Source of the DNA: Candidatus Omnitrophota bacterium | GTDB taxonomy: Bacteria > Omnitrophota > Gorgyraeia > S143-82 | NCBI GenBank assembly: GCA_015494465.1 | Contig: WGBD01000002.1 | Location: 197,267 to 261,266, forward strand | Length of the DNA: 64,000 bases | Reading direction: 5' to 3' | Shown: piece after piece, positions 4,335 to 30,613 of the stretch | Numbering within the stretch: position 1 is the first letter of the stretch | How the letters are laid out: each line of letters begins with the position of its first letter | Made by a program: the position numbers and the translations under genes | Notes under the pieces: model-generated | Seen by the model: only the letters and a program-made list of their open reading frames with translations | Databases searched by the model: none | Told to the model about the DNA's origin: nothing

Positions 4335-4675
4335 AACCGTTCTAGATAGAGGAATACCGGATCGTTAGGATCTACGCCGTTCCCATCCAGATCTGCCCTG
4401 CTCCTGAGGACCTTATACCTAGGATCGTTTATCCCAATACCGATCTGCTGGTAGGTCCCCAAGGCTGGGGCACGACCGGTTAAAGAGAGTTTACCCATCT
4501 CTGATATGGCGATGTTTAGCATGTTCAGATAATAGACCATGTCCTCTATACCGTAGCGCTTCTGCTGAAGGCGTACGGAGTATATCAGACTAGTAAGTCC
4601 GATCCAGACCACCGCTATCACTGCCATCGCAGTCAAGACCTCGAAGAGAGAGAACCCCCGCTTTAAGCTTTCCAT
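4331..4675 (-). CDS. prepilin-type pseudopilin
   Basis: Start taken at the internal Met (cat at 4673-4675), giving MESLKRGFSLFEVLTAMAVIAVV, a canonical G/F-x-x-x-E prepilin leader. The upstream part of the track ORF overlaps the neighbouring gene. Confidence 0.55.
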   Translation of the reverse strand: MESLKRGFSLFEVLTAMAVIAVVWIGLTSLIYSVRLQQKRYGIEDMVYYLNMLNIAISEMGKLSLTGRAPALGTYQQIGIGINDPRYKVLRSRADLDGNGVDPNDPVFLYLERL

Positions 4676-17405: not shown

Positions 17406-18749
17406 TCACCCCCTTTCTCTTACCACCAAGGTCAACCCCTCTACCCTCACGACCTCCACCTTCCTGCCGACGGGGATAACGCCCTTCCCCTCGCTACGGG
17501 CAGACCAGTAGGTACCATCTGCAAACACCTTGCCCCCGGAAGGAGACACCTCCTTTACCACCTCCCCTATCTGGCCCACGAGGGACTCCGCCCCCACCCT
17601 GGCCCGCATCCTCCTTACGCGCAGGGCCAGATAGACGATCCCAGTGGCAATAGCGCCCAACATCAACCCGGGTATGACTATCCAGGCCTTGGGGAGGGGG
17701 AAAAGGGCTCCCTCCTTATTCCACAGTATCAGGCCACCCCATACGAAGGAGATCGTCCCTGCCAAGGCCAGGATACCAAAACCGGGAGTCAAGACCTCGC
17801 CAAAGAAGAATGCCACCCCCAGGAGTATGAGGAGCAGGCCAAAGTAGTTTACCGGGAGCAGGCCGTATCCGTATAGACACAGTCCCAAGCCGATCAGTCC
17901 CACTACGCCAGGCACGCCAAATCCAGGATGAGTCAGTTCAAACAGTATCAACAGGAGGGAAAGCGAATACAGGACATAGAGGACATAGGGATGGGTAAGG
18001 TAGTACATCAAGAGGTCCATCCCCTCGAGGCGTTTGTACACAAGATTTACTCTATTGCTGGGGGAAAGAACCCCCTTCTCCTCGGCCACCGCAATCAACT
18101 CCCGCACATCGGTGCATATCGCATCAATTATACCGTACTTTAGGGCCTCCTCCTCGGTGAGGGCACGACTCCTGGTAATCAACTCCTTGGCAATCTCCTC
18201 GTCAGCACTGGGATGCTTATTGCGGACATAGGAGAGGAAAAAGGCAATCGTATCGTTGACTACCTTCTCCTGAAGCAGATCTTCTTTTTCATCCTCACTT
18301 CCCAACATCACCGGATGGGCTGCCCCTATGTGGGTGCTCGGTGCCATAGCGACGAAGTCGCAAGCAAGGGCCAGGAGTGCCCCTGCGGATCCCGCCCGGG
18401 CCCCTTTGGGATAGACGAAGGCAAGGGTAGGGACCGGCGAGGCCAGGATCTCCTTGACTATCTTTCGACAGGACTCCAAAAATCCCCCGGGGGTATCGAT
18501 CAAGAATATCACGCCTTGATACTCCTCGGCGTGTTCCATCTCCCTCTGAACGAGGGACACCAACGGCGGAGATATAACCTTATCGTCTATCTCTATAACC
18601 AGATAATTCGCACTGGAAAGGAACGGCCTGAGAATTTGAGAACCCGAATCCGAAGCGAAGAGAAGGCAACCTATGGACAGAGAAAAAGCAAAAAGGAGAA
18701 AAACGGACTTCCACCTAATCCCAGCGATCCCCGGCCTCCTTAAAAACAA
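17406..18749 (-). CDS. NfeD-family membrane-bound serine protease (stomatin operon partner)
   Basis: 447 aa with a ClpP-like N-terminal domain, a multi-TM middle region and a C-terminal OB-like domain. Classic nfeD-stomatin gene pair. Confidence 0.8.
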   Translation of the reverse strand: MFLRRPGIAGIRWKSVFLLFAFSLSIGCLLFASDSGSQILRPFLSSANYLVIEIDDKVISPPLVSLVQREMEHAEEYQGVIFLIDTPGGFLESCRKIVKEILASPVPTLAFVYPKGARAGSAGALLALACDFVAMAPSTHIGAAHPVMLGSEDEKEDLLQEKVVNDTIAFFLSYVRNKHPSADEEIAKELITRSRALTEEEALKYGIIDAICTDVRELIAVAEEKGVLSPSNRVNLVYKRLEGMDLLMYYLTHPYVLYVLYSLSLLLILFELTHPGFGVPGVVGLIGLGLCLYGYGLLPVNYFGLLLILLGVAFFFGEVLTPGFGILALAGTISFVWGGLILWNKEGALFPLPKAWIVIPGLMLGAIATGIVYLALRVRRMRARVGAESLVGQIGEVVKEVSPSGGKVFADGTYWSARSEGKGVIPVGRKVEVVRVEGLTLVVRERG

Positions 18750-18752
18750 AAA

Positions 18753-18825
18753 TGGACCGGAGGGGAGTCGAACCCCCGACCTTCGGTATGCCGAACCGAC
18801 GCTCTCCCAACTGAGCTACCGGCCC
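18753..18825 (-). tRNA. tRNA-Ala (anticodon GGC)
   Basis: Reverse complement GGGCCGGTAGCTCAGTTGGGAGAGCGTCGGTTCGGCATACCGAAGGTCGGGGGTTCGACTCCCCTCCGGTCCA. It has a G3:U70 pair. Anticodon arm TCGGT-TCGGCAT-ACCGA, with an unusual C at position 33. Confidence 0.75.
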
Positions 18826-18840
18826 ATGTCTTACAAATCC

Positions 18841-18912
18841 TGCCCCTGGCAGGACTCGAACCTGCGCACCAGGCTCCGGAGGCCTGTGCTCTATCCCCTG
18901 AGCTACAGGGGC
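18841..18912 (-). tRNA. tRNA-Arg (anticodon CCG)
   Basis: Reverse complement GCCCCTGTAGCTCAGGGGATAGAGCACAGGCCTCCGGAGCCTGGTGCGCAGGTTCGAGTCCTGCCAGGGGCA. Anticodon loop CTCCGGA. Confidence 0.85.
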
Positions 18913-19499
18913 GATGTATATATTTTCAACAAATCTCGGGCCTTTTCAAGGGCAATCTTGCGATGGCTGATCCTGTGCTTCACCCCTGCCCCCAACTGGG
19001 CAAAGGTCTTGTCGTAACCATCGGGGATAAAGATGGGATCGTAACCGAACCCCTCCCTGCCGAGCATCCGCTCGGACAATCTGCCCCGCACCTCTCCCCG
19101 GACCACGCCGATTAACCCCTGAGGATCGGCTACAGCGATGCAGCAGACGAACCGGGCCCGCCTGTTGGCCTTGCCCCTCATAAGGGACAAGACCAACCGA
19201 TTGTTCGCCAGATCGTCCTTCTCCGGCCCTGCAAACCGGGCAGAATAGACCCCGGGCCTGAAACCCAGGGCCTCCACCTCCAGACCGGAATCGTCGGCCA
19301 AGGTGAGCATACCTGCCACCTTGGCGGTCCAGACAGCCTTCTTCACCGCGTTCCCCACGAAGGTGCCCACATCCTCCTCTACCTCGGGGAGGTCCCGTCC
19401 GAGGTCGTTCAAGGACAGGGCCATCCAATCCGGACCCAGTATCTCCTTCAACTCGACAAGTTTCTTCGGATTCCTGGTCGCCAACAATATCCTCTTCAT
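18903..19499 (-). CDS. rdgB: non-canonical purine NTP pyrophosphatase (RdgB/HAM1 family)
   Basis: Start taken at the internal ATG (19497-19499), giving MKRILLATRNPKKLVELKEIL with HAM1 motifs. The upstream track extension is spurious. The 3' end overlaps the tRNA-Arg 5' end by ~10 nt. Confidence 0.85.
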   Translation of the reverse strand: MKRILLATRNPKKLVELKEILGPDWMALSLNDLGRDLPEVEEDVGTFVGNAVKKAVWTAKVAGMLTLADDSGLEVEALGFRPGVYSARFAGPEKDDLANNRLVLSLMRGKANRRARFVCCIAVADPQGLIGVVRGEVRGRLSERMLGREGFGYDPIFIPDGYDKTFAQLGAGVKHRISHRKIALEKARDLLKIYTSPL

Positions 19500-20946: not shown

Positions 20947-21803
20947 TTCCTATTGGCCCTCACCTCTACCCTTCCCCCCGCCCCCAAAAAGGCCACCAAG
21001 GCCCCTATTCCGCTGCGCTCACTTACCTCAAGGCCCTTTAGTCCCAACACATACACCGCAGTCGCCCAGGCGTCCGCAAGGGCACAATTAGGTGCATAAC
21101 AGGAGGCGCTGACCAAATCCCCTACCTTCCTTCCTGAGCGGGGGTCCCAGATGTGCCTGCCCCGTTCGTAACTGCCCGAGGTGGCAATCGCCCCTCCCCG
21201 CAGACGCACCCTATCCAACGGCCTCCTACCCAGGGGATTGCGCACCTCCACCCAGACCCCCATCTGCCTCTTATCGAACAACCCCACATCACCGCCGGCG
21301 TTCACCATCAGAAACTCCATCCCCTCACCCTCTGCCCTCTCAATAAGGCGATCCACTATGTAGCCCTTAGCAACCCCGGAGAAGTCGTACCTTCCTCCCT
21401 CCGGGGCCCTGATCCCCTCCTCAAGGACCTCTATCCCCATCGCCGAGGCCCTACCTTTGTAGCCCGGATCAAAGGCCCCACCGCTCCCCTTGCAGACCTC
21501 CTTGCTCACCTCTATCACATCCCTCAACACCGGATAACAGGGATCACCGCTCGGTATCCATCCCCCCCTGTTGAGTCTCCCCACGCAGGAATCAGCCCGA
21601 TAGAAGGACAACTTCCCCTCGAGATCCCGGGCAAGGGCAAGCAAGTCCCTGAGTTTGCCCCTATCCTGTTTAGGAAGGACGAAGTCCACATAGGTATCCA
21701 TCAGGACGAAGGATTCCCTGACGAGGCCTGCCCCCTGTATCCGGACCAAGGCAACGGCCACCAAGACCAGTCCTAATAAGACAGCAACGGCGTACCGCTT
21801 CAT
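20922..21803 (-). CDS. apbE: FAD:protein FMN transferase
   Basis: 293 aa with a signal/anchor and ApbE-family layout (LMDTYV...SGSYERG...). Confidence 0.75.
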   Translation of the reverse strand: MKRYAVAVLLGLVLVAVALVRIQGAGLVRESFVLMDTYVDFVLPKQDRGKLRDLLALARDLEGKLSFYRADSCVGRLNRGGWIPSGDPCYPVLRDVIEVSKEVCKGSGGAFDPGYKGRASAMGIEVLEEGIRAPEGGRYDFSGVAKGYIVDRLIERAEGEGMEFLMVNAGGDVGLFDKRQMGVWVEVRNPLGRRPLDRVRLRGGAIATSGSYERGRHIWDPRSGRKVGDLVSASCYAPNCALADAWATAVYVLGLKGLEVSERSGIGALVAFLGAGGRVEVRANRKWPGRRRW

Positions 21804-22014
21804 GACCTCCCCTACAGATCAACGATTCTCCCTAAAATATACCACCGTTCCCACAACGACCCAAAGTCATATCCTTAGGCCAAAACATATGCGGGTTTAC
21901 TTGCATTGAAGATTCAATTGCAACCTAAAGAAATTTCCAGGAATCTGAGGTCTAAAAGAATGGCGCCAATATGGAAAAACCGGCATCTCCCGAGCAACCA
22001 ACCTTTACTCACCA

Positions 22015-22042
22015 GATCCTACCTGAAAGATCCTACCTGAAT
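22015..22042. repeat. perfect tandem 14-mer AGATCCTACCTGAA x2 in the apbE upstream region
   Basis: Read directly from the sequence at 22015-22028 and 22029-22042. It lies in an unusually long (255-bp) AT-rich intergenic region. Confidence 0.5.
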
Positions 22043-22058
22043 CCGAAAACTCCCCATC

Positions 22059-22904
22059 TCAAGCGATGCAGTCCACTAGCGGAGAGATATCGACAAGAGC
22101 CTTAGGCAGAACCGCATTAGCGTAGAGGCAGGCTATGTCAGGACTAAAGGGGATCCTGAGGGCCAGAGGTACGGACTCCTCCTCGAGCCAGGCCTGCAGA
22201 CGCCCATCCAGTTCCCCGGAAATGCCACTCTTGTTTGCCACCGCAACGACCTCCACATCGAACCTGCGCACCAAAGCCAGCAGCCTCTCCGCATCCGACA
22301 GACCGGACAACGAGGCCTCCACGACCAACACCACCACATCCGCCCCGGATATCGCAGATATCACCGGGCATCCCAACCCCGGCGGTCCGTCCACCAACAG
22401 CCACCTGCATCCCAAGGCCATTGCCCTCTTTCTGGCCCTGCCCTTTAACTCGCTTACCAGACGCCCGGAACTCCCCCGGCCCGGGAGGAGTTCTGCGTAG
22501 AACAGCTCTCCCCAATCGGTCCGTCCGAAAAACACATCCCCGGTATCCTCCTCCACCATCTCTATCGCCGAGGCAGGACACACAAAGGCACACACCCCAC
22601 AGCCCTCGCACAGTTCGGGCACGACATAGGCCTTGCCATCCCTATCCTCTATCGCCGAAAACCTGCAGGCCTGCCAGCATCTGCCACAACCCCTGCAAAC
22701 ATCCCTCTTCACCCGAGCCACCGTGCCCAGATGGAGGCGCTGGGAAGATTCAATCTTCGGGCCGAGAAGGAGGTGGAGGTTGGACGCCTCCACATCGCAG
22801 TCGCATATCACCTTGCTCTCAGGTGTAGAGGCCAAGAGAGCGGTAATCAGCGTCTTGCCGGCTCCTCCCTTGCCACTTGCGACCACTATCTCCTTCGGCC
22901 TCAT
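22059..22904 (-). CDS. MinD/ParA-superfamily P-loop ATPase with inserted 2x[4Fe-4S] ferredoxin domain
   Basis: 281 aa. Deviant Walker A SGKGGAGKT and CxxCxxC...C clusters (CRGCGRCWQAC, CEGCGVCAFVC). Confidence 0.75.
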   Translation of the reverse strand: MRPKEIVVASGKGGAGKTLITALLASTPESKVICDCDVEASNLHLLLGPKIESSQRLHLGTVARVKRDVCRGCGRCWQACRFSAIEDRDGKAYVVPELCEGCGVCAFVCPASAIEMVEEDTGDVFFGRTDWGELFYAELLPGRGSSGRLVSELKGRARKRAMALGCRWLLVDGPPGLGCPVISAISGADVVVLVVEASLSGLSDAERLLALVRRFDVEVVAVANKSGISGELDGRLQAWLEEESVPLALRIPFSPDIACLYANAVLPKALVDISPLVDCIA

Positions 22905-23755
22905 CCCCTCACCCTCGCCATCAGCGCATCCCTCAGGGAATCCAAGATTGCCCGCAACTCCCCCGATGCGGAATAGGGATCAATACCCCGGGCCAGTGAA
23001 CGATGCACCTCCTCCCTGAAAGGGACCTTGGCCAAGACCTCTATCCCTTCCTCCTCGCACACCCGCAGGACCTCTCCATTGCCCATCCCGTAGCGATTTA
23101 CCACCACCAGGACATCTATACCCATCTCCCTAGCCACCCTCACCGCCTTGCGGAAGTCGTGGGCCCCGAAGGGGGTATCCTCAACCACGCCCAGAAGGAG
23201 GTCCGCCCCCTCAACCGACTCCACGAAGGCACAGCCACTACCGGGAGGGCAATCCAACACCAACCACTGCCCACCCACTCCTTCCGCCTTCACCTCCCTT
23301 ATCACCGGCCCGGGATTTGCCTGCCCCACCTTAAGCCACCCGCTAACCAACTCCAGACCTCCACCCACCGCCTTTACCACCTCCCCTATAACCACCTCTC
23401 TTTCCTCAATTGCCCCTTCCGGACAGACCAACACGCACCCCCCACAGCGATGGCAGAACTCCTCCAGAACGATCGCTTTGTCGAATACCACTATCGCGTT
23501 GAACCGGCAGAAGTCCCGACACCTACCGCAGGCAGTACAGTCCTCCTGCCTCACCACCGGCACAGAGGAAAGGACCTCTCGGCGACTTACCTCCCGAAGG
23601 TCCTTGAAAAACAGGTGGGCGTTTGGCTCCTCGACATCCAGATCCAAGAGGGATACCCTCTCCCCCGCAGAGACGAAGGCACGGGCCAGCCCCACCGCCA
23701 AGGTGGTCTTGCCCGTGCCCCCTTTTCCTCCTGCCAGAGCGATCCTGACTGCCAA
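22901..23755 (-). CDS. MinD/ParA-superfamily P-loop ATPase with 4Fe-4S ferredoxin domain (paralog)
   Basis: 284 aa. Motifs GGKGGTGKTT, CTACGRCRDFC and CHRCGGCVLVC. Confidence 0.75.
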   Translation of the reverse strand: MAVRIALAGGKGGTGKTTLAVGLARAFVSAGERVSLLDLDVEEPNAHLFFKDLREVSRREVLSSVPVVRQEDCTACGRCRDFCRFNAIVVFDKAIVLEEFCHRCGGCVLVCPEGAIEEREVVIGEVVKAVGGGLELVSGWLKVGQANPGPVIREVKAEGVGGQWLVLDCPPGSGCAFVESVEGADLLLGVVEDTPFGAHDFRKAVRVAREMGIDVLVVVNRYGMGNGEVLRVCEEEGIEVLAKVPFREEVHRSLARGIDPYSASGELRAILDSLRDALMARVRG

Positions 23756-23757
23756 AC

Positions 23758-24084
23758 CTACCTGCTCCCCTGTGAGGTCAGGAATTCCCTAATCGCGTCC
23801 TCGCCCCGGCCGGAGTAGTCCTCGTAGGCCTTTATCCCTGCCACGGCCAAGAGGTCCTTGGCCTTGGGCCCTATGTTTTCCGCCAGAAGCACATCCACAG
23901 AGTGATTCCTGAGGGTCTGGACCGCTGCGGGCCCTGCTCCGCTGGAGGCCTCAAAACCGGGATTTTCTACAACCTCGTATCGGCCGGACTGCGAATCGTA
24001 TATCAGGAACCACTGCGCCCGGCCGAACTTCTCGTCCATCAAGGCCTCCTTGCTCGGGGCAGAGACCGGCACCGCTATCCTCAT
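23758..24084 (-). CDS. NifX/NafY-like dinitrogenase FeMo-cofactor-binding-domain protein
   Basis: Start taken at the internal ATG (24082-24084), giving MRIAVPVSAPSKEALMDEKFGRAQWFLIYD... (~108 aa). This is a typical Nitro_FeMo-Co fold sequence. The start overlaps the DUF5320-like stop by 4 nt. Confidence 0.7.
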   Translation of the reverse strand: MRIAVPVSAPSKEALMDEKFGRAQWFLIYDSQSGRYEVVENPGFEASSGAGPAAVQTLRNHSVDVLLAENIGPKAKDLLAVAGIKAYEDYSGRGEDAIREFLTSQGSR

Positions 24085-24377
24085 TCCTGACCCTCCTCGA
24101 GTTGCTTCCTCAACCACTCCCTCTGGGCATCTAGGGCAGAAAGTTGGGCCCGGAGGATGTCCTTTCTCTCCTCCTCGGACAGCGGTGCGGAAGCGGTCCT
24201 CCAAAACCACTGCCAGCCCATACCTCTGCCCCAGCCTCGCCCGAGGCCTCTGCCCCAACCGCCTCCAAGGCCTCTACCCCAGGTAAAGCCCGGGGCTCCT
24301 GCGCCAGAGCAGAACCCGAGTCCTCGTCCGGTCCTCGGGCCCAGGCCCATCGGTCCGGTTCCGTCTCCCCAAGGCAT
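24081..24377 (-). CDS. Gly/Arg-rich DUF5320-like small protein
   Basis: 98 aa: MPWGDGTGPMGLGPRTGRGLGFCSGAGAPGF...GRGLGRGWGRGMGW followed by a C-terminal coiled-coil/acidic tail. The pattern is that of DUF5320 proteins, which co-occur with DUF134 genes. Confidence 0.55.
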   Translation of the reverse strand: MPWGDGTGPMGLGPRTGRGLGFCSGAGAPGFTWGRGLGGGWGRGLGRGWGRGMGWQWFWRTASAPLSEEERKDILRAQLSALDAQREWLRKQLEEGQE

Positions 24378-24392
24378 AGTCTCACCTCCTCG

Positions 24393-24824
24393 TTAACACC
24401 TTCCTCTTCTCCTGCGCCTTCGGCCAAATCCACCTCCCCACACCGAGAGGTGGGTTGATCCGCACTCCGGACAGACATCGCTCTCCTTTGCGGTCCAGGT
24501 GGACTCACAGTCCTCGCAGAAAAACCTCTCCGCCTGCAGGCTCACCGGTCCCTTCTCCACCACCAAGGCCCACCCTTCGACCAAGGCCTTGGCCACCTTT
24601 TCGTGGGCACCGGCAAGCAATCTCGTGAGCGTGGGCCGGGAGACCCCCATCCTCTCTGCTGCCTCCTCGTGGCTCAGGCCACAGAGGTCCACCAACCTCA
24701 TCGCCTCGCACTCGTCCAGGGTCATCCTCAACATCCCCAAGGCCCTGACGGGTATCCCCTGAGGCTTAAAGACCCTGACCACCGGTGGACTTCCCACTAT
24801 CCTGTCCTTCTTTGGCCTGCTCAT
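24393..24824 (-). CDS. DUF134/UPF0251 predicted DNA-binding protein (sigma-70 region-4-like HTH plus C-terminal Cys4 zinc ribbon)
   Basis: 143 aa. HTH segment LDECEAMRLVDLCGLSHEEAAERMGVSRPTLTRLL. C-terminal CEDC...CPEC zinc ribbon. Confidence 0.7.
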   Translation of the reverse strand: MSRPKKDRIVGSPPVVRVFKPQGIPVRALGMLRMTLDECEAMRLVDLCGLSHEEAAERMGVSRPTLTRLLAGAHEKVAKALVEGWALVVEKGPVSLQAERFFCEDCESTWTAKESDVCPECGSTHLSVWGGGFGRRRRRRGRC

Positions 24825-24837
24825 CTTCCGATCCCGA

Positions 24838-24857
24838 TTTTGAACTATAGTTCAAAA
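24838..24857. promoter_or_regulatory. perfect 20-bp palindrome TTTTGAACTATAGTTCAAAA just upstream of the DUF134 start codon; candidate operator
   Basis: Read directly. It is 14 nt upstream of the ATG at 24824. A second palindrome GTCAAATTGAC sits at 24889-24899, with a TTGACT -35-like hexamer on the minus strand. Confidence 0.45.
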
Positions 24858-24911
24858 CTATGATACAAACAACCTCCAAGATTTTCAAGTCAAATTGACA
24901 AAAATAGGCAG

Positions 24912-26624
24912 TTACGACTTTCTAAGAAAGGCCAGCAACCGATCCGGATCCCAGGCGTTGATAACATCCTCCCTGCTCAGCCACCCCCGACGGGCAGTAC
25001 CCACGCCGAAGAAGATGTAGTCCAACTGCTGATGGGAATGGGCGTCGGTGTTGATGCAGACCTTCACGCCCATCTCCTTTGCCATCCGGCAGTGGTCCGC
25101 ATTCAGGTCCAGACGGAACGGAGAGGAGTTCAACTCCAGGGCAACGCCCTTTTTTTTGGCGGCCTCCATTATCCGCTCCATGTCCACCTCGTAGGCCTCG
25201 CGCTCACCCAACAACCTCCCGGTGGGGTGGGCGAGGATGTTTACCTCGGGATGGGATATCGCCCTGACGATCCTCTCGGTCATCTCCTCCCTGTCCATCT
25301 TGAATCGGGAGTGGACCGCCACTATCACCACATCCAACTCCTTCAGTATGTCCTCGTCGCAGTCCAGACTTCCGTCGGCAAGGATGTCCACCTCCATCCC
25401 TGCGAGGATGCGCACCCGAGGATACAACCTCTGCAAGCGCCTTATCTCCTCCCTCTGGGCCTTGACCTTCTCCCGGGTCATACCCTTCGCCACCGCCAGG
25501 GAAGGGGAGTGATCGGTTATCGCTATGTACTTATACCCCTTTTCCAAGGCCTTCTTCACCATCGCCTCTATCTCGTCCACTCCGTCGCTGTAGGTGGTGT
25601 GCATGTGCAGATCCCCGCAAACATCTTCCACCTCTATCAACTCCGGCAGGTCGTGGGCGAGGGCGAGTTCCACCTCTCCCTGATCTTCCCGGATCTCCGG
25701 AGGGATCCAATCCATCCCCAGGCAGTCGTAGACCTCCTCTTCCGACCTGCCCGCTACCATCTTCTCACCCTTGAATAGGCCGTATTCGTTGAGTTTCAGG
25801 CCCTTATCTATGCAGATCTGACGGAGTTTTATGTTGTGTTCCTTGGAACCGGTGAAGTAGAGCATCGCTGCGCCGTAGGAATCCTCGTCGAACACCCTCA
25901 AGTCCATCTGCAGGCCGGAGATAATCACGCTGGACTTCTTCTCCCCCCGGGCCAGGACCTCCTCCACCTCGGGATACCTTACGAAGTGGTCCATCACCTT
26001 GGCGGGATTATCCGCCACCACCAGTATGTCCACATCGTGGACGGTCTCCTTGAACCTCCGGATGGAACCCACCACATCCACCCGCTTTACCCCCTTAAAC
26101 CCCGCGATGTAGTCCCTCACCTCGTAGGCCAGAGGCAGGACCTTGCCCAGCGGACTCCTTCCCTTGCTCCTGCGCAGAAACTCTATCCCTTTCAGGATGT
26201 TCTCCTCCGTTTTCGGACCAAACCCCGGCAGGGACCGCAACTTTCCCGCCCTGGCAGCGGTCTCCAACTCGTCGATACTGGATATCCCCAACTTATCGTA
26301 TATCACCTTCACCTTCTTGGGGCCCAGGCCCGGGATGTTCATCATCTCCAACAGACCCGGAGGCAGTTTCGCCTTCAGTTCCTCGTACTGGGCAAGGGTC
26401 CCGGTGCGATAGATCTCCTTTATCTTCTCCGCCAGGTCCTTGCCTATCCCCGGCAATTCCTCCAGCCTGTCCTGAAGGACATACTCTTCAAGGTCCTCGG
26501 GCAGGGACTCTATCCGCATCGCTGCCCGCTCGTAGGCCCTTACGCGAAAGGGATTGTCCCCCAAGAGGTCCAAGAGTTGGGCTATCTCGTAGAATATCTG
26601 GGCGACCTTCTTGTTCAGTATCAT
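24912..26624 (-). CDS. family X DNA polymerase with C-terminal PHP domain (PolX)
   Basis: 570 aa with N-terminal helix-hairpin-helix and Pol-beta-like domains. PHP motif HMHTTYSDG. Confidence 0.9.
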   Translation of the reverse strand: MILNKKVAQIFYEIAQLLDLLGDNPFRVRAYERAAMRIESLPEDLEEYVLQDRLEELPGIGKDLAEKIKEIYRTGTLAQYEELKAKLPPGLLEMMNIPGLGPKKVKVIYDKLGISSIDELETAARAGKLRSLPGFGPKTEENILKGIEFLRRSKGRSPLGKVLPLAYEVRDYIAGFKGVKRVDVVGSIRRFKETVHDVDILVVADNPAKVMDHFVRYPEVEEVLARGEKKSSVIISGLQMDLRVFDEDSYGAAMLYFTGSKEHNIKLRQICIDKGLKLNEYGLFKGEKMVAGRSEEEVYDCLGMDWIPPEIREDQGEVELALAHDLPELIEVEDVCGDLHMHTTYSDGVDEIEAMVKKALEKGYKYIAITDHSPSLAVAKGMTREKVKAQREEIRRLQRLYPRVRILAGMEVDILADGSLDCDEDILKELDVVIVAVHSRFKMDREEMTERIVRAISHPEVNILAHPTGRLLGEREAYEVDMERIMEAAKKKGVALELNSSPFRLDLNADHCRMAKEMGVKVCINTDAHSHQQLDYIFFGVGTARRGWLSREDVINAWDPDRLLAFLRKS

Positions 26625-26636
26625 AGAAAGATTATA

Positions 26637-27581
26637 CTACCTCCTGGCGGGGGTCTGCATCAGGGAAAGGACCGCCTCCTTCAGGCCCTCCCGCACCGGG
26701 ACCTTCTGGCGGAACCCGATGGACCTCATCCCGGATGTGTCGTAAACACGGGCCTTCTTAAGGAACCTAACCACCTTGCCCAGGTACGGCAGGAGAGAGA
26801 AGATCCTTACCAGACCCTCCGGAACCTCCCTCAACTCCACTCCCATCGTACCCGCAATGGCAAGGAATATCTCTCTGGCAGTGAGGACCTCCTCGTCCGC
26901 GACATTGAAGGTCCTCCCCAACACATCGTCGCGGATGAGGGCGGAGTAGATCACCTCGTTCAGGGTGCTTATCCCACACAGGTGCCAGGGATTGTCCATC
27001 CTGCCCAACAGGACCTTAAACCTGCGCAGGAACGAGCACAACCTGCCCAGCAGGTGGGGCTCACCCGGACCGTAGACCATCGCCGGGCGCAAAATCACCC
27101 CGCTCAGTCCCCGCTTGATTGCCCCCCTCACTATCACTTCCGCCTCCAACTTGGACTGTCCGTAGGGCATAGAGGCCTTGAGGGGCATGTCCTCGCGCAA
27201 CGGCAGTTCGGTGTTCCCGCTTATCACCGCTATGGAACTCATGTGCACGAAGCGAGAGACACCCCTGCGCACCGCTACGTCTACCACGTACTGCGTCCCC
27301 AAGACGTTTACCCGCCACAGCAACTCCTGATTCGTCCCCACATATCCTGCGCAGTGGAGGAGTATCGCATCCCTCTCAACGAACCCCTCCAGAGAGGCCG
27401 GATCCCTCACATCTCCTACCACCAGATCGCACCCCATCTCCCTTGCCCAATCGCAGATAGAGGTCGGGCGGACCAGCAACCTTACATCCTTGGCGGGCCA
27501 CCTGCCACTCCGCACGAGGTCCTCCACTATAGACCTGCCTAGGAACCCGGTACCACCGGTAACCAACAGCAGCCTGCTCAA
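26637..27581 (-). CDS. NAD-dependent epimerase/dehydratase (extended SDR)
   Basis: 314 aa. Rossmann motif VTGGTGFLG. Its start overlaps the NeuB-like stop. Confidence 0.8.
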   Translation of the reverse strand: MSRLLLVTGGTGFLGRSIVEDLVRSGRWPAKDVRLLVRPTSICDWAREMGCDLVVGDVRDPASLEGFVERDAILLHCAGYVGTNQELLWRVNVLGTQYVVDVAVRRGVSRFVHMSSIAVISGNTELPLREDMPLKASMPYGQSKLEAEVIVRGAIKRGLSGVILRPAMVYGPGEPHLLGRLCSFLRRFKVLLGRMDNPWHLCGISTLNEVIYSALIRDDVLGRTFNVADEEVLTAREIFLAIAGTMGVELREVPEGLVRIFSLLPYLGKVVRFLKKARVYDTSGMRSIGFRQKVPVREGLKEAVLSLMQTPARR

Positions 27582-28588
27582 TCCTCCAAGACCTCCTGAC
27601 CCAGCATCTGGCCTGCCTCGTAGTCCTCGGGAGAGGTCCTCCCCAGTATCTTGGGAAGGAGCATGGGAGATATCCCATCCCCCGGTCTAAGGGCGATCAG
27701 GTTGTCCATAGAAAGGACCTCGCCTTTCTTTATCCGCCTGCGGGCAAAGAGGGACTTGCGGGCAAAGGGAAGGTTCTTCAACTCCGAAGGGGCCGGTCTT
27801 TTAATCCCATCTCCCAAGGCCCTTTCTACCTTCCGTATTGCGGAGACCATCTCCCGGAATTCCTCTGGCTCCAGACTGGCCTTGTGGTCCGGCCCGGGCA
27901 AACCCCTGTCCAAGGTAAAGTGCTTCTCTATCACCTCCGCCCCCAAGGCCACCGCAGCCACGGGCACCTCCCAGCCCAAGGTATGGTCCGAATAGCCCAC
28001 GCGCACCCCAAAGGCATGCCGCATCGCAACCATTGCCCTGAGGTTGACCTCTTCTACAGGGGCGGGATACTCAGTAAGGCAGTGGAGGAGCGTAATCTGA
28101 TCCCTATCCAGACCCGACAACAGGACCTCCAAGGCGCCCTTCACCTCCTCCATAGTGGCCATACCGGTGGAGAGGATGACCGGACGGCCGAATTGCGCGA
28201 CCTGCTTGAGAAGGGGATAGTCGGTGAGGTTGCCCGAACCTATCTTGAACCTTTCCATACCCAATTCGTACAGGAAGCGGGCGGATTCCTCGTCGAAGGG
28301 GGTAACCATAAACTCTATCCCCACCGCATCGCATCTCTCTTTTATCCGAACGAAATCCTCCCGGGACAGTTCCAATGCCTTTAACATCTCCCACTGCGAG
28401 CCCTCTCCTACCGTCCTCTTCTGATACTCCGGCCTGCCCGCAGATGGCGATACCAGTGTCTCTGCCCTGAACAACTGGAACTTCACTGCAGAGGCACCCA
28501 CTTCCTTTGCCACCTCTACCATCTCCAGTGCCCGCTCGACGGAGCCATTGTGGTTTACTCCCGCCTCCGCGATTACGAATACGCCCAT
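27578..28588 (-). CDS. N-acetylneuraminate/pseudaminic/legionaminic acid synthase family (NeuB-like) with C-terminal SAF domain
   Basis: Start trimmed to the ATG at 28586-28588 (MGVFVIAEAGVNHNGSVERALEMV...). SD GGAGGTG lies 9 nt upstream. The longer track ORF overlaps the helicase gene. Confidence 0.8.
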   Translation of the reverse strand: MGVFVIAEAGVNHNGSVERALEMVEVAKEVGASAVKFQLFRAETLVSPSAGRPEYQKRTVGEGSQWEMLKALELSREDFVRIKERCDAVGIEFMVTPFDEESARFLYELGMERFKIGSGNLTDYPLLKQVAQFGRPVILSTGMATMEEVKGALEVLLSGLDRDQITLLHCLTEYPAPVEEVNLRAMVAMRHAFGVRVGYSDHTLGWEVPVAAVALGAEVIEKHFTLDRGLPGPDHKASLEPEEFREMVSAIRKVERALGDGIKRPAPSELKNLPFARKSLFARRRIKKGEVLSMDNLIALRPGDGISPMLLPKILGRTSPEDYEAGQMLGQEVLED

Positions 28589-28672
28589 CTTATCTGCCAC
28601 CTCCGCTTTAAGATCGGCCAGCCCAATATAATGATAACCAAAACTCCCCTTTAAAGGTATAATTAACTGCAT

Positions 28673-30613
28673 ATGGAAGAGATATTTTCGTTTCAGTTGG
28701 ACGAATTCCAGAAGCAAGCACTCTCCGCCGTGGACGAGGGCTGTTCCCTGTTGGTCTCTGCACCCACTGGTGCGGGGAAGACGGTGATAGCGGAGTATGT
28801 GATTCATCGGTGTCTGGAGAAGGGGCTCGGGGTAATATACTGCGCACCCATAAAGGCCCTGAGCAACCAAAAGTTTCGGGACTTCCGCCAGAGGTACGGA
28901 GAGGACAAGATAGGGATACTCACCGGAGATGTCTCCCTCAATCCCGAGGCGCCGGTCCTGATAATGACCACCGAGATATTCCGCAACACCATCTTGGACT
29001 GTCCTTACCGGCTTGACTCCAAGTTCTGGGTGATATTCGACGAGATCCACTACATAGACGATGTGGAACGGGGGACGGTGTGGGAGGAGTCGATTATAAT
29101 GATGCCCAAGCACATGCGCCTCTTGGGATTGAGTGCAACCATCCCGAATGTAGAGGAACTGGGGGAGTGGATCCGCAAGATACACCCATTCCCCCTAAAG
29201 ATAATCGTGGAAGAACACCGCCCCGTCCCTTTGGAGTTCCGCTTCCAGTGCCACAACGAGATATTCACCTCGGTATCCGCACTAAAGGACCAGTGCTACC
29301 CTTGGATGGCCAACAAGCGCATCCCCCGTGCCTGGGATGTGGGGGCAAAGCCCAACAAACTGATTACCCTGATAAAACACCTGAGGGAGGAAGACCTCCT
29401 GCCCTGCATATACTTCGCCTTCAGCCGAAGGCGGTGTGAGATCCTCGCCTGGGAGGTGCGGAGGATGAACTTCCTCTCGCCCAGCGAGGCGGAAGAGATA
29501 ACCACCCGCTATTACGAATTACTGGAGCGCTTCGGGCTCATCGGAGACAAGTTCGCGGAAGACATGTACGACCTCGTGAGGCGGGGAATTGCCTTCCATC
29601 ACGCGGGCATGCTTCCGACGATGAAGGAGGTGATAGAGCAGTTGTTCACCTCCCGCCTGATAAAGGTGATATTCACCACCGAGACCTTTGCTCTGGGGAT
29701 AAACATGCCTGCCCGCACGGTGGTGTTCGACGAATTGCGGAAGTACTACGGCACCCACTTCGGCGAACTGCGCACCCGGGACTTCTACCAGATGGCGGGC
29801 AGGGCAGGGCGACGGGGGATAGACGAGAAGGGATATGTGTACTGCCGGATAAATCCCCATCACATAGACTTCTACACCCTGAAGCGCATAATATTCGGTC
29901 AGCCTGAGAAGGTAATCAGTCAGTTCAACATGTCCTACGCCTCCATCCTCCACCTCTACAAGGACCTTCAGGACCGGTTGGTAGACATATACCCGCTCTC
30001 CTTTGCCCACTTCCAGTCCAGCAAACGGGAGCACAGAGAGGACATCCGCATCATCCGGGCAAAGGTGCGCCTCCTCAAGGAACTGGGGTACATCCGAAAG
30101 AACCAGTTGACCGAAAAGGGAATCTTCGCCTCCCATGTTTACGGATACGAACTGCCCACTACCGAACTCTACTTTGCCGGCCTGTTCCGGGACCTCAACC
30201 CCAAAGAGCTCCTGGCCTTGGCCTCTGCTATCGTCTTCGAGCCCCGCAAGGGTCAACACAAACCACCCCTGCCAAAAGGGATTAAGTACCTGCAGAAACA
30301 ATCCAACCGGATCCTGCGCAGGATCATCCGCATGGAGAGGAAGTTTCAGCTCCTGCCCGTGACCAAACGCCTCCACTTCCACCTGGCCCTGGCGATAGTG
30401 CGCTGGGCCGAAGGGGAGAGCTTCGAGCGACTCAACCGCTACACCGACACCGATCCGGGCGAGATAGTGCGTTACTTCCGCATGGTAATCCAGTTGCTCA
30501 AGGACATCTGCGAGGTCCCACTCATAGATCCGAGACTGAAAGAGACCATCCACTCCGCCATAGAGAAGATAAATCGGGACGAGGTGGACGCGGAAAGGCA
30601 ACTGCGGGCCTGA
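28673..30613 (+). CDS. Ski2-like DEAD/DEAH-box helicase (HelY/Mtr4-like, short form)
   Basis: 646 aa. Motif I SAPTGAGKT, motif II FDEIHYIDD, SAT and HAGM motifs. Confidence 0.8.
   Translation: MEEIFSFQLDEFQKQALSAVDEGCSLLVSAPTGAGKTVIAEYVIHRCLEKGLGVIYCAPIKALSNQKFRDFRQRYGEDKIGILTGDVSLNPEAPVLIMTTEIFRNTILDCPYRLDSKFWVIFDEIHYIDDVERGTVWEESIIMMPKHMRLLGLSATIPNVEELGEWIRKIHPFPLKIIVEEHRPVPLEFRFQCHNEIFTSVSALKDQCYPWMANKRIPRAWDVGAKPNKLITLIKHLREEDLLPCIYFAFSRRRCEILAWEVRRMNFLSPSEAEEITTRYYELLERFGLIGDKFAEDMYDLVRRGIAFHHAGMLPTMKEVIEQLFTSRLIKVIFTTETFALGINMPARTVVFDELRKYYGTHFGELRTRDFYQMAGRAGRRGIDEKGYVYCRINPHHIDFYTLKRIIFGQPEKVISQFNMSYASILHLYKDLQDRLVDIYPLSFAHFQSSKREHREDIRIIRAKVRLLKELGYIRKNQLTEKGIFASHVYGYELPTTELYFAGLFRDLNPKELLALASAIVFEPRKGQHKPPLPKGIKYLQKQSNRILRRIIRMERKFQLLPVTKRLHFHLALAIVRWAEGESFERLNRYTDTDPGEIVRYFRMVIQLLKDICEVPLIDPRLKETIHSAIEKINRDEVDAERQLRA

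What the first reader, a model, noticed from the sequence alone, without database searches (positions are those of the whole stretch)
22059..24899. Conserved cluster of unknown function: DUF134 HTH regulator, DUF5320-like Gly/Arg protein, NifX-like FeMo-cofactor-domain protein and two MinD-type 4Fe-4S ATPases, with a perfect palindromic operator
Five co-directional, tightly packed or overlapping genes on the minus strand. In order: DUF134 (HTH plus Cys4 zinc ribbon), a 98-aa GxGRG-repeat protein, a ~108-aa NifX/NafY-like domain protein, and two paralogous MinD/ParA ATPases carrying CxxCxxC ferredoxin inserts. The neighbourhood is known from anaerobic genomes (established knowledge of Pfam family co-occurrence), but no biochemical function is assigned. 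Here it has its own promoter region: an 87-bp intergenic with a perfect 20-bp palindrome 14 nt from the DUF134 start, consistent with autoregulation. The adjacent genes apbE (flavin transferase), birA and rsmE are probably unrelated. The composition suggests a metallocluster or cofactor handling, insertion or trafficking module rather than nitrogen fixation, since no nif structural genes are present.
Basis: partly seen in the sequence, partly recalled or inferred. Interest (0 to 1): 0.65.

Follow-up and report, generated by a model that had tools for sequence, protein, structure and literature searches.

The report
Self-regulated orange-protein (ORP) metal-sulfide operon

Summary
Five co-directional, translationally coupled minus-strand genes are present: DUF134, DUF5320, a Cys-free NifX-like protein, and two paralogous P-loop ATPases, each with a 2x[4Fe-4S] insert. 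A perfect 20-bp palindrome lies 13 nt before the DUF134 ATG.

This is the core of the ORP (orange protein) cluster studied in Desulfovibrio. There, Orp3/Orp4 (ATPases) and Orp8 (orange protein) co-purify as an Fe-S complex. A locus whose NifX-like protein is 75% identical to crystallised D. gigas ORP has the same gene order, headed by DUF134.

New here: the palindrome core TGAAC-N4-GTTCA recurs within 150 nt upstream of DUF134 in 44 of 80 loci from several phyla. That is 45 of the 76 sites found in 885 kb. It tracks with the presence of NifX-like neighbours. In the window it starts 3 nt after a -10 box. This supports DUF134 as an autorepressor.

Elsewhere the same module sits behind Fur boxes, or under sigma54/OrpR control in Desulfovibrio. 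DUF5320 has the W/G/R cationic character of the thioferrate-binding tail of IssA and is sometimes fused to NifX-like domains.

The physiological role is still unproven. Interest is moderate.

The parts
24883..24888 (-). -35-like hexamer TTGAAA of the operon promoter
   Evidence: Consensus scan: TTGAAA, 17 nt spacer, TATCAT; 10 of 12 matches and the only promoter-like hit in 21700-25000. TTG(A/T)AA is kept at the same place in L019, L016 and L001.
24860..24865 (-). -10-like hexamer TATCAT
   Evidence: TATCAT or TATTAT is conserved in L019, L016 and L001 (alignment A3).
24838..24857 (.). Operator: perfect 20-bp palindrome TTTTGAACTATAGTTCAAAA (core TGAAC-N4-GTTCA). It starts 3 nt after the -10 box, so it covers the expected transcription start, and ends 13 nt before the DUF134 ATG.
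   Evidence: Sequence. It is the only such site in the window. The core recurs upstream of DUF134 genes in 44 of 80 loci from several phyla and is associated with NifX-like neighbours (38/45 vs 6/35). Consensus wwTwwTGAACATAwGTTCAwAA.
24393..24824 (-). DUF134/UPF0251 protein. It has a sigma70-region-4/DeoR-like HTH (invariant SRPT..R), a C-terminal CxxC-x11-CxxC ribbon and an Arg-rich tail. It is the predicted autorepressor.
   Evidence: PF02001 5e-23. Alignments A1 and A2. AF2 model pLDDT 78.7. The HTH superposes on the DeoR DNA-binding domain and sigma region 4, and the ribbon weakly resembles HypA.
24081..24377 (-). DUF5320 protein. It has the N-terminal motif MPWGDGTGPMGLGPRTGRGLGFC, then W/G/R repeats (first 60 aa: 23 G, 7 R, 7 W, 1 C; pI 12), then an acidic C-terminal helix.
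   Evidence: PF17253 1e-25. Composition. Homologues. Fusion to PF02579 in L041.
23758..24084 (-). Cys-free NifX-like (PF02579) protein of the ORP/TM1290/MTH1175 type; Orp8 equivalent
   Evidence: PF02579 3e-20. PDB matches: TM1290 1rdu 6e-18, D. gigas ORP 2wfb 2e-13, MTH1175 4e-11. 0 Cys.
22901..23755 (-). ATPase A: MinD/Mrp-class deviant Walker A P-loop ATPase with an inserted 2x[4Fe-4S] ferredoxin domain (the 'first' paralogue; Orp3/Orp4 class)
   Evidence: CbiA, ParA and Fer4 hits. It matches the first member in all 26 tandem pairs examined.
22059..22904 (-). ATPase B: the paralogous 'second' ATPase with a 2x[4Fe-4S] insert
   Evidence: 35% identical to A. It matches the second member in 26 of 26 pairs.
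21964..21985 (-). Weak terminator-like hairpin in the 255-bp gap before apbE; possible end of the operon
   Evidence: Consensus scan only: 7 pairs, 3 of them G-C, and no more such hits than in shuffles. Low confidence.

Best explanation
The region is a five-gene, single-promoter version of the anaerobe-specific ORP (orange protein) cluster, placed under a regulator of its own.

Shown:
- The genes are tightly packed and probably translationally coupled: two ATGA overlaps, and gaps of 2 and 15 nt at the other two junctions.
- The NifX-like protein belongs to the ORP/TM1290/MTH1175 group.
- The two ATPases are an ancient paralogue pair that always occurs in the same order.
- A sigma70-type promoter is followed at once by a 20-bp palindrome, whose core TGAAC-N4-GTTCA is conserved upstream of DUF134 genes in many phyla.

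Inferred:
- A DUF134 dimer binds the palindrome through its SRPT..R helix-turn-helix and blocks initiation. It thereby represses its own gene and the four downstream genes.
- Repression is relieved by a metal or metal-sulfide signal. The sensor could be the Cys4 ribbon and Arg-rich tail of DUF134, or its NifX-like or DUF5320 partners.
- The two ATPases form an ATP-dependent Fe-S heterodimer that docks the NifX-like protein, as Orp3-Orp4-Orp8 do in Desulfovibrio.
- DUF5320 supplies in trans the cationic Trp/Gly/Arg segment that IssA carries as a tail. It would hold an anionic inorganic species (thioferrate, thiometallate or an Fe-S precursor) on the Cys-free NifX-like scaffold.
- The module would therefore store, assemble or hand over metal-sulfide clusters in anaerobes.
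For: Family assignments.

ORP link:
- PDB hits to TM1290, D. gigas ORP and MTH1175.
- L013, whose NifX-like protein is 75% identical to D. gigas ORP, has the order DUF134, G/R-rich protein, ORP, ATPase, ATPase. It carries TGAACATACGTTCA 17 nt before its DUF134 start.
- Literature on the Orp3-Orp4-Orp8 Fe-S complex: PMC6345978.

Module conservation:
- The identical five-gene order occurs in L001 and L016 with unrelated flanks.
- Among 80 DUF134 loci, 45 have a NifX-like gene, 25 a DUF5320 gene and 25 both Fd-ATPases nearby.
- 26 of 26 ATPase pairs keep the A-then-B order.

Operator:
- 45 of 76 sites in 885 kb lie within 150 nt upstream of DUF134.
- A site is present in 38 of 45 loci with a NifX-like neighbour and 6 of 35 without, Fisher p = 1e-9.
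- Extra sites precede separate NifX-like-led sub-operons.
- Promoter and operator are co-conserved with a DUF134 protein only 57% identical.
- A Bacillota variant, TGACATATGTCA, occurs twice around the promoter.

DNA-binding fold.

Protein fusions: DUF134+PF02579 and DUF134+DUF5320; PF02579+PF17253.

Iron link: in two cultured thermophiles, the best Fur-box match of each locus lies on the promoter of the DUF5320 / NifX-like / Mrp / Fd-ATPase operon.

IssA parallel: DUF5320 composition against the tail description in PMC5524996.
Against: - No binding experiment exists. The assignment of the site to DUF134 rests on co-occurrence.
- The core is nearly the Gram-positive LexA box (my own knowledge).
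- The Fisher test ignores phylogenetic relatedness among loci.
- Desulfobaccales DUF134 genes carry the same recognition helix but have no nearby site.
- The window cluster lacks the MrpORP and Orp5-like genes of the Desulfovibrio system.
- The window NifX-like protein is closer to TM1290 than to ORP.
- The IssA-tail analogy rests on composition only; I could not obtain the IssA sequence.
- Among the 150 best DUF5320 relatives nearly all are stand-alone, so fusions are rare.
- The Cys4 ribbon is missing in 12 of 44 operator-associated DUF134 proteins.
Confidence: 0.7

Rival explanations
1. The palindrome is a LexA (SOS) operator of the Gram-positive 'Cheo box' type (CGAAC-N4-GTTCG), not a DUF134 site.
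For: The consensus TGAACATATGTTCA differs from the B. subtilis LexA consensus CGAACATATGTTCG (my own knowledge) only at the two outer bases. A DNA repair polymerase gene (PolX-PHP) lies just upstream.
Against: - The outer bases are T (37/41) and A (40/41), not C and G. The conservation extends to a 20-bp wwTww...wAA pattern.
- The site travels with DUF134 across phyla, whereas LexA motifs are known to differ between phyla (established knowledge; not checked for these lineages), and flanking genes differ between loci.
- It tracks NifX-like neighbours and precedes other sub-operons of the same module.
- It lies downstream of polX, so it cannot control that gene.
- There is no second GAAC-N4-GTTC in the 64 kb.
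Confidence: 0.05
2. The palindrome works as an RNA hairpin: a terminator of the upstream polX gene or a leader structure.
For: The RNA folds at -10.8 kcal/mol, z = -2.5. It lies 54 nt after the polX stop.
Against: - There is no U-tract, and the stem is AT-rich.
- Across phyla the stem sequence itself is invariant, without compensatory changes, while the flanks change. That pattern fits a protein site.
- It recurs in loci that have no polX.
- The predicted -10 box lies upstream of it, so a transcript from this promoter would hold only part of the palindrome.
Confidence: 0.05
3. The module is a MinD/ParA-like positioning or cell-division system, as proposed for the Desulfovibrio ORP complex, rather than a metal-sulfide handling system.
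For: The ATPases have the MinD/ParA deviant Walker A motif. Desulfovibrio cells lacking OrpR show altered morphology. MrpORP is polar, and a link to Z-ring positioning was suggested (PMC8359166, PMC6345978, PMC4672049).
Against: - No MinC/MinE or ParB partner is present (not seen among the annotated neighbours).
- Each ATPase carries 2x[4Fe-4S].
- The partners are a cofactor-binding NifX-like domain and an IssA-tail-like protein.
- Related clusters sit behind Fur boxes and include Mrp Fe-S carriers.
- The Desulfovibrio papers themselves call the cell-division role a hypothesis.
Confidence: 0.15
4. DUF5320 is an RGG-type nucleic-acid-binding protein, for example a co-repressor working with DUF134, not a binder of inorganic metal-sulfide.
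For: RG-rich repeats are classical nucleic-acid-binding motifs. A survey of archaeal proteomes flagged both DUF134 and DUF5320 proteins as carrying a G-quadruplex-binding-like motif (PMC7565180). DUF5320 lies next to DUF134, and its N-terminal motif is fused to DUF134 in L006. Several DUF134 proteins end in G/R tails.
Against: - DUF5320 is also fused to the NifX-like domain (L041, L055).
- It occurs in Fur-controlled clusters that have no DUF134.
- It is rich in Trp, like the IssA tail (PMC5524996).
Confidence: 0.25
5. The genes take part in maturation of nitrogenase-type FeMo-cofactor.
For: PF02579 is the NifB/NifX/NafY domain.
Against: - There are no other nif-type genes in the window. My HMMs found no further NifX-like or ATPase ORFs, and the neighbours are housekeeping genes.
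- The best structural relatives are TM1290, ORP and MTH1175, not NifX/NafY.
- The NCBIfam nifB hit is far below its cutoff.
Confidence: 0.02

Closest known systems
[quoted passage not shown]
   Same: Both have a small PF02579 protein plus two paralogous P-loop ATPases, each with two [4Fe-4S] motifs, encoded together. Both are restricted to anaerobes. Orp3-Orp4-Orp8 co-purify as an Fe-S complex (PMC6345978). A locus with a 75%-identical ORP orthologue has the window's gene order, including DUF134.
   Different: The window has one sigma70-type operon with DUF134 and an operator, not two divergent sigma54/OrpR/IHF operons. It has no MrpORP and no Orp5-like Cys-rich protein in the cluster. It has DUF5320. 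The window protein scores better against TM1290 than against ORP.
IssA of Pyrococcus furiosus (thioferrate storage protein)
   Same: IssA has an IPR003731/PF02579 globular domain plus a cationic, Gly/Trp/Arg-rich, single-Cys segment proposed to wrap anionic thioferrate (PMC5524996). The window's DUF5320 N-terminal 60 aa have 23 G, 7 R, 7 W, 1 C and pI 12. Natural PF02579+PF17253 fusions exist.
   Different: Here the cationic segment is a separate polypeptide with a conserved MPxGDGTGP...GRGxGxC motif and a C-terminal helix. No sequence comparison with IssA was possible. No evidence of nanoparticles.
TM1290 (1RDU) and MTH1175 (1EO1), structural-genomics NifX-like proteins
   Same: They are the best sequence matches to the window NifX-like protein (6e-18 and 4e-11). 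They are single-domain proteins of about 110-125 aa.
   Different: No function is known for them, so they add a fold but not a mechanism.
Mrp/NBP35/ApbC Fe-S carrier ATPases and MinD
   Same: They share the deviant Walker A motif (GKGGxGKT) and the SIMIBI fold, with ATP-dependent dimerisation expected.
   Different: The window ATPases carry an inserted 2x[4Fe-4S] ferredoxin domain. They score far below the family cutoffs (minD_arch 55 vs 202 bits; MrpORP 49 vs 450 bits). No solved structure has this architecture.
Gram-positive LexA operator (Cheo box, CGAAC-N4-GTTCG)
   Same: Same GAAC-ATAT-GTTC core and spacing.
   Different: The outer bases are T/A, and the flanks extend the palindrome. The genomic association is with DUF134/ORP modules, not SOS genes.
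DeoR (B. subtilis) DNA-binding domain and sigma70 region 4
   Same: The DUF134 HTH superposes at rmsd 0.6-0.8 A over 40-48 residues, with 42% identity to the DeoR DNA-binding domain. DeoR also binds a palindromic operator.
   Different: Only the HTH matches. No whole-protein match was found (0 hits at E <= 1e-3). DUF134 adds an N-terminal RPxKxR...FKPxGIP motif and a Zn-ribbon-like C-terminus.

Membership tests
ORP (orange protein) gene cluster / complex | Small single-domain PF02579 protein related to D. gigas/D. vulgaris orange protein (Orp8) | tested here: met
   PF02579 3e-20. 2wfb (D. gigas ORP) 2e-13 over the full length, although TM1290 scores higher.
ORP (orange protein) gene cluster / complex | Two adjacent paralogous P-loop ATPases, each with two [4Fe-4S] ferredoxin motifs (Orp3/Orp4) | tested here: met
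   The positional orthology matches the pairs next to true ORP orthologues in L013 and L015.
ORP (orange protein) gene cluster / complex | MrpORP (Orp9): Mrp/NBP35 domain fused to a Di-Nase domain, encoded in the cluster | tested here: not met
   NCBIfam MrpORP gives only partial, sub-cutoff hits (27 and 49 bits vs 450). There is no further ATPase or NifX-like ORF anywhere in the 64 kb.
ORP (orange protein) gene cluster / complex | Orp5-type small Cys-rich [2Fe-2S] protein in the cluster | tested here: inconclusive
   No such ORF lies among the five genes. In L013 and L015 a Zn_ribbon_8 protein of 82-84 aa follows the ATPases. I could not verify that this is the Orp5 family because Fievet 2011 is not held.
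ORP (orange protein) gene cluster / complex | sigma54 promoter with OrpR enhancer-binding protein and IHF | tested here: not met
   A sigma70-like -35/-10 is present. No EBP gene lies next to the cluster. By eye there is no GG-N10-GC element in the 87-bp spacer.
ORP (orange protein) gene cluster / complex | Physical complex carrying Fe-S and a Mo-Cu-S cluster | not testable with these tools
   Needs purification and metal analysis.
DUF134 / UPF0251 (PF02001) | Profile match above the gathering score, with the conserved N-terminal FKPxGIP and SRPT..R HTH motifs | tested here: met
   81.8 bits vs cutoff 27. Invariant columns in A1 and A2.
DUF5320 (PF17253) | Profile match above the gathering score over the full length | tested here: met
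   90.8 bits vs cutoff 27, residues 1-95.
IssA-type thioferrate storage protein | PF02579/IPR003731 domain and a cationic Gly/aromatic tail in one polypeptide | tested here: not met
   The window NifX-like protein has 108 aa and no tail. The W/G/R segment is on the separate DUF5320 protein. Fused forms exist elsewhere.
IssA-type thioferrate storage protein | Binds thioferrate and forms nanoparticles | not testable with these tools
   Needs XAS or EM on purified protein.
NifX / NafY (nitrogenase cofactor carriers) | Encoded with nif structural or assembly genes; NifX/NafY-clade sequence | tested here: not met
   The neighbours examined (about 8.6-41 kb of the window) are housekeeping genes with no nif genes among them, and my HMMs found no further NifX-like or ATPase ORF anywhere in the 64 kb. 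The closest solved relatives are TM1290, ORP and MTH1175.
MinD cell-division ATPase | MinD-family score above cutoff, with MinC/MinE partners | tested here: not met
   minD_arch 55.5 and 51.4 bits vs cutoff 201.75; minD_bact 29 and 44.7 vs 212.9. No min partners are adjacent.
LexA (Cheo-box) operator | CGAAC-N4-GTTCG consensus upstream of SOS genes, several per genome | tested here: not met
   The outer bases are T/A in 37/41 and 40/41 sites. There is a single site in 64 kb. The association is with DUF134/NifX-like genes. No whole-genome test was possible.

The most novel reading that the evidence does not exclude
DUF134 is the dedicated sensor-repressor of a widespread anaerobe system that stores or hands over inorganic metal-sulfide (thioferrate, thiometallate or Fe-S precursors). 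In that system DUF5320 acts as a free-standing 'IssA tail' that wraps the anionic polymer on a Cys-free NifX-like scaffold. The Orp3/Orp4-type Fe-S ATPase heterodimer drives loading or release. Lineages have swapped the controller between DUF134, Fur and the redox-sensing OrpR.
Probability: 0.25. Interest if true: 0.75.

Novelty: new variant of a known kind. Interest (0 to 1): 0.5.

Why it matters
The ORP complex is one of the few anaerobe-specific protein machines that is widespread yet has no settled role. DUF134 and DUF5320 are large families with no literature. DUF5320 alone has 3,587 cluster representatives at 50% identity.

A conserved operator gives DUF134 a concrete, cheaply testable function: a transcription factor with a defined 20-bp site. 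It also gives a handle for finding the signal that turns ORP genes on.

The regulator swapping (DUF134, Fur box, redox-sensing OrpR) and the IssA-tail-like nature of DUF5320 point to iron-sulfur or metal-sulfide handling rather than cell division. That narrows the experiments needed to settle the function of the complex. Cultured hosts are available, including Thermodesulfobacterium hydrogeniphilum, Petrimonas sulfuriphila and probably Thermodesulfovibrio aggregans (the locus read, L217, is a metagenome-run contig carrying the protein named for that species).

Tried and rejected
1. Fievet et al. 2011 (PMC3133258), the paper defining the orp cluster, is not held. I therefore could not verify which Pfam families Orp5 and Orp7 belong to. 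I used a locus with a 75%-identical ORP orthologue instead.
It was repeated with 14 sequences.
3. The reverse search for TTTTGAACN4GTTCAAAA in metagenomes gave 120 hits, of which only 5 lie next to DUF134. The rest look like chance. The window's exact 20-mer also occurs between ribonucleotide reductase genes in L116 and in non-coding DNA in L201. This search was not useful for defining a regulon.
4. I looked for covariation between the recognition helix and the operator. The SRPT..R helix is the same in loci with and without the site, so this gave no discrimination.
5. The IssA tail sequence is not in the paper's text or supplement, so only composition was compared.
6. A fold search with the DUF134 model found no whole-protein relative.
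7. Literature searches for DUF134, DUF5320, UPF0251, COG1342, PF02001, PF17253 and COG1149 found nothing relevant.
8. Rejected: a nif function, a MinD proper, an IS or REP element (single copy in the window), and a sigma54 promoter.

Full report
**1. What is in the sequence**

Five ORFs lie head to tail on the minus strand:
- DUF134, 24393-24824, 143 aa.
- DUF5320, 24081-24377, 98 aa, starting 15 nt after the DUF134 stop.
- NifX-like, 23758-24084, 108 aa. Its ATG overlaps the DUF5320 stop as ATGA.
- ATPase A, 22901-23755, 284 aa, with a TTG start 2 nt after the previous stop.
- ATPase B, 22059-22904, 281 aa, with an ATGA overlap with A.

DUF134 has CxxC-x11-CxxC at residues 103-121 and ends in GGGFGRRRRRRGRC. 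Each ATPase has GKGGxGKT and two CxxCxxC...CP motifs. The two ATPases are 35% identical.

The spacer to the upstream PolX-PHP gene (24912-26624) is 87 bp. It holds TTTTGAACTATAGTTCAAAA at 24838-24857, 13 nt before the ATG. A promoter-like pair precedes it: TTGAAA at 24888-24883, a 17-nt spacer, and TATCAT at 24865-24860 (10 of 12 matches). The palindrome therefore begins 3 nt after the -10 box and should cover the transcription start.

It is the only perfect 20-bp palindrome and the only GAAC-N4-GTTC in the 64 kb. However, 3 of 30 shuffles also produce one 20-bp palindrome. The window alone does not prove function.

**2. The cluster is the ORP cluster**

The best solved relatives of the NifX-like protein are TM1290 (6e-18), the Desulfovibrio gigas orange protein ORP 2WFB (2e-13) and MTH1175 (4e-11).

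The literature describes the D. vulgaris ORP complex:
- Orp3 and Orp4 are paralogous ATPases, each with two [4Fe-4S] motifs.
- Orp8 is the orange protein, whose homologues carry a non-covalent S2MoS2CuS2MoS2 cluster.
- Orp5 is a small [2Fe-2S] protein.
- Orp9 (MrpORP) transfers Fe-S clusters to apo-Orp3-Orp4-Orp8, which co-purify (PMC6345978).
- The genes form two divergent operons driven by sigma54, IHF and the Fe-S redox sensor OrpR. The role is 'still unclear', with cell division as a hypothesis (PMC8359166, PMC3897727, PMC4672049).

I searched with the D. gigas ORP sequence and looked up a 75%-identical orthologue. Its locus, L013, reads DUF134, a 112-aa G/R/Q-rich protein, ORP, Fd-ATPase, Fd-ATPase, a second NifX-like gene, and a Zn-ribbon Cys-rich protein. 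That is the window's order. 'No biochemical function assigned' is out of date, although the physiological role is still open.

**3. The module is conserved and the flanks are not**

The closest relatives are Candidatus Omnitrophota MAGs: L016, with DUF134 90% identical and the other four proteins 76-88% identical to the window's, and L019 (DUF134 95% identical, on a truncated contig). L016 and a more distant genome, L001 (DUF134 57% identical), keep all five genes in order. Their neighbours are a histidine kinase, a response regulator and a decarboxylase in L016, and ClpB and a two-component system in L001. They are not PolX, ApbE, BirA or RsmE.

I built iterated HMMs from the window proteins and annotated 80 genome loci centred on DUF134 relatives:
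- 45 loci have a NifX-like gene on the same strand within 6 kb.
- 25 have DUF5320.
- 25 have both Fd-ATPases.
- 17 have all three.
- 31 have none of these partners. Most are Desulfobaccales 'orphan' DUF134 genes or cut contigs; a few (for example L017, L043, L067) instead have an Mrp-type ATPase without a ferredoxin insert beside DUF134.

By record title, the lineages include Omnitrophota, Bacteroidales/Paludibacter, Cloacimonadota, Planctomycetota, Ignavibacteria and Neomarinimicrobiota. Separate look-ups added a Bacillota locus (L218).

In all 26 tandem ATPase pairs, the first gene is closer to window ATPase A and the second to ATPase B. This includes the pairs beside true ORP orthologues. 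The pattern indicates an old duplication kept as an obligate pair, which fits the Orp3-Orp4 co-purification.

**4. The palindrome is a conserved operator**

The upstream regions of DUF134 genes carry the same inverted repeat:
- TTTTGAACAATAGTTCAAAA in L001.
- TTTTGAACATATGTTCAAAA in Bacteroidales.
- TTATGAACGTAGGTTCATAA in Planctomycetota.
- TGAACATATGTTCA in several other lineages.

Across the 80 loci (885 kb) there are 76 matches to TGAAC-N4-GTTCA with at most 1 mismatch. Of these, 45 lie within 150 nt upstream of the DUF134 start, in 44 loci. That zone is about 1.4% of the sequence.

The site is present in 38 of 45 loci with a NifX-like neighbour and in 6 of 35 without one. Four of those six are truncated contigs. 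Fisher p = 1e-9, not corrected for relatedness.

The consensus from 41 distinct sites is wwTwwTGAACATAwGTTCAwAA. Further sites precede NifX-like-led sub-operons where the module is split (L042, L062, L072, L089). The ORP-orthologue locus L013 has TGAACATACGTTCA 17 nt before its DUF134 start, and L008 has a one-mismatch site 18 nt before.

An alignment of the window, L019, L016 and L001 shows the -35 box, the -10 box and the palindrome conserved in register while the surrounding DNA diverges. A Bacillota version of the module carries TGACATATGTCA twice, one copy overlapping the -35 box and spacer and one just downstream of the -10 box.

The stem bases are invariant, without compensatory changes, and there is no U-tract. 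The element therefore behaves as a protein site, not an RNA hairpin.

**5. Who binds it**

DUF134 is the obvious candidate.
- It is the one DNA-binding protein that travels with the site.
- Its AF2 model (pLDDT 78.7) has an HTH that superposes on the operator-bound DeoR DNA-binding domain (42% identity over 40 residues, rmsd 0.6 A) and on sigma70 region 4. A HypA-like ribbon follows. No whole-protein relative is in the PDB.
- A palindrome fits a dimer.

The position over the start site argues for repression. This step is inferred, not shown.

The main rival is LexA, because the core equals the Gram-positive SOS box apart from the outer bases (my own knowledge). Several points argue against it:
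- The outer bases are T (37/41) and A (40/41), not C and G.
- The flanks extend the palindrome.
- The site persists across phyla, whereas LexA motifs are known to differ between phyla (established knowledge; not checked for these lineages).
- It is tied to NifX-like neighbours.
- There is only one site in 64 kb.

A whole-genome scan, which I could not run, would settle it.

**6. What the proteins may do**

Protein fusions link all three small proteins:
- DUF134+PF02579 (P0054, P0059, P0073/L009).
- DUF134+DUF5320 (P0075/L006).
- PF02579+PF17253 (L041, L055; both domains above cutoff in L041).
- A NifX-like protein with a (MGRGGG)n tail (L083).

Many loci consist of just DUF134 plus a NifX-like gene. 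This suggests the NifX-like domain can serve as the ligand-binding partner of the regulator.

The window's DUF5320 has a conserved N-terminal motif, MPWGDGTGPMGLGPRTGRGLGFC. The first 60 residues, which include that motif, hold 23 Gly, 7 Arg, 7 Trp and 1 Cys, with pI 12. An acidic helix ends the protein. The IssA paper describes a 70-residue tail with 15 Gly, 7 cationic residues, 14 aromatic residues and the protein's single Cys, pI 10.7. It has a conserved Trp/Gly/Arg repeat pattern and is proposed to wrap anionic thioferrate made on the Cys-poor PF02579 domain. MTH1175 belongs to the same clade (PMC5524996). The window NifX-like protein has no Cys.

I therefore propose that DUF5320 is an IssA-type tail supplied in trans. 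This rests on composition and fusions only.

An iron link comes from two further loci. In Thermodesulfobacterium hydrogeniphilum (L216) and a locus carrying a DUF5320 protein named in one source for Thermodesulfovibrio aggregans (L217), the operon DUF5320, NifX-like x2, Mrp, then Fd-ATPase x2 further downstream has no DUF134. Instead, the single best Fur-box match of each 10-kb locus (16 of 19) lies on its promoter. L216 also has a fur gene next door and three tandem W/G/R genes. So the module appears under DUF134, Fur or OrpR in different lineages.

**7. Verdict**

- The window is a variant of a known kind of system.
- As far as the searchable literature shows, two things are new: the cross-phylum operator that assigns DUF134 a role, and the DUF5320/IssA-tail link.
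- Confidence that this is an ORP-type module is about 0.85. Confidence that DUF134 binds the palindrome is about 0.75. Confidence that the module handles thioferrate-like species through DUF5320 is about 0.25-0.3.

Noticed in passing
L216 4687-4705 and L217 4947-4965: The best Fur-box match of each locus (16 of 19 to GATAATGATAATCATTATC) lies on the promoter of a DUF5320 / NifX-like / Mrp / Fd-ATPase operon that lacks DUF134. L216 also has a FUR-family gene at 4142-4576.
   Followed up: partly
L216 4736-5567: Three tandem small genes encode W/G/R-rich DUF5320-type proteins (82, 107 and 73 aa) in Thermodesulfobacterium hydrogeniphilum. The first lacks the MPWGDxTGP motif but keeps the coiled-coil end.
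   Followed up: no
L218/L219 4927-4938 and 4966-4977: A Bacillota module (DUF5320, DUF134, NifX-like, ATPase, ATPase, Mrp, NifX-like) has two copies of TGACATATGTCA: one overlapping the TTGACA -35 box and spacer, the other just downstream of the TATAAT -10 box. The half-site is one base shorter than in the window. The DUF134 there is a short, ribbon-less form with ARTT instead of SRPT in the helix.
   Followed up: partly
L041 2719-3465, L055 9520-10260, L083 9195-9782, L009 6001-6687, L006 6001-6459: Natural fusions: NifX-like+DUF5320 (with a His-rich insert), NifX-like+(MGRGGG)n tail, DUF134+NifX-like, and DUF134+DUF5320 N-terminal motif.
   Followed up: partly
L018, L020-L027, L029, L031, L033-L036, L045, L046, L070: Desulfobaccales and other 'delta proteobacterium' DUF134 genes are orphans. 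They have no NifX-like, DUF5320 or Fd-ATPase gene on the same strand (a few have a ferredoxin-motif ORF on the opposite strand that my ATPase HMMs also hit) and no TGAAC-N4-GTTCA nearby, yet they keep the same SRPT..R helix. Their target is unknown.
   Followed up: no
L217 1329-4874: Divergent from the DUF5320 operon lie a short HTH_1 (LysR/ModE-type) gene and an ABC transporter with PBP_like_2/SBP_bac_11 binding proteins. This may be a molybdate or tungstate link, given that ORP binds a Mo-Cu-S cluster.
   Followed up: no
window 22380-22400 and 23235-23255 (approx.); L-loci pairs: Both ATPase paralogues keep a Cys just after the Walker B-like motif D-x-P-P-G-x-x-C (A: LDCPPGSGC; B: VDGPPGLGC). 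It is conserved in nearly all pairs printed (absent in the L077 second paralogue), and could ligate a cluster at the dimer interface.
   Followed up: no
L003/L017 7001-8292: A 'Candidatus Methylomirabilis' MAG has DUF134 followed by a plain Mrp-type ATPase (no ferredoxin insert) and a 67-aa ORF. A one-mismatch site, TAGAACTATAGTTCAG, lies 14 nt before the start.
   Followed up: no
L116 5664-5683: The window's exact 20-mer, TTTTGAACTATAGTTCAAAA, also occurs between class I ribonucleotide reductase alpha and beta genes in an unrelated metagenome contig. This is probably chance.
   Followed up: partly
window 27578-29185: The mechanical ORF is 535 aa, but the NeuB domain starts at residue 222. The real start is probably internal, and the upstream part overlaps the epimerase gene region.
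   Followed up: no
window 18752-18912: A tRNA-Ala(GGC) and tRNA-Arg(CCG) pair lies just downstream of the RdgB/HAM1-like ORF. The plus-strand ORF 18673-19017 is an artefact that reads through these tRNAs.
   Followed up: no
window 30614-32943: An ABC-3 (Znu/Mnt-type) permease is followed by two further co-directional ORFs of about 257 aa that I did not annotate; together they may form a metal transporter, about 6 kb from the cluster. No evidence of linkage.
   Followed up: no
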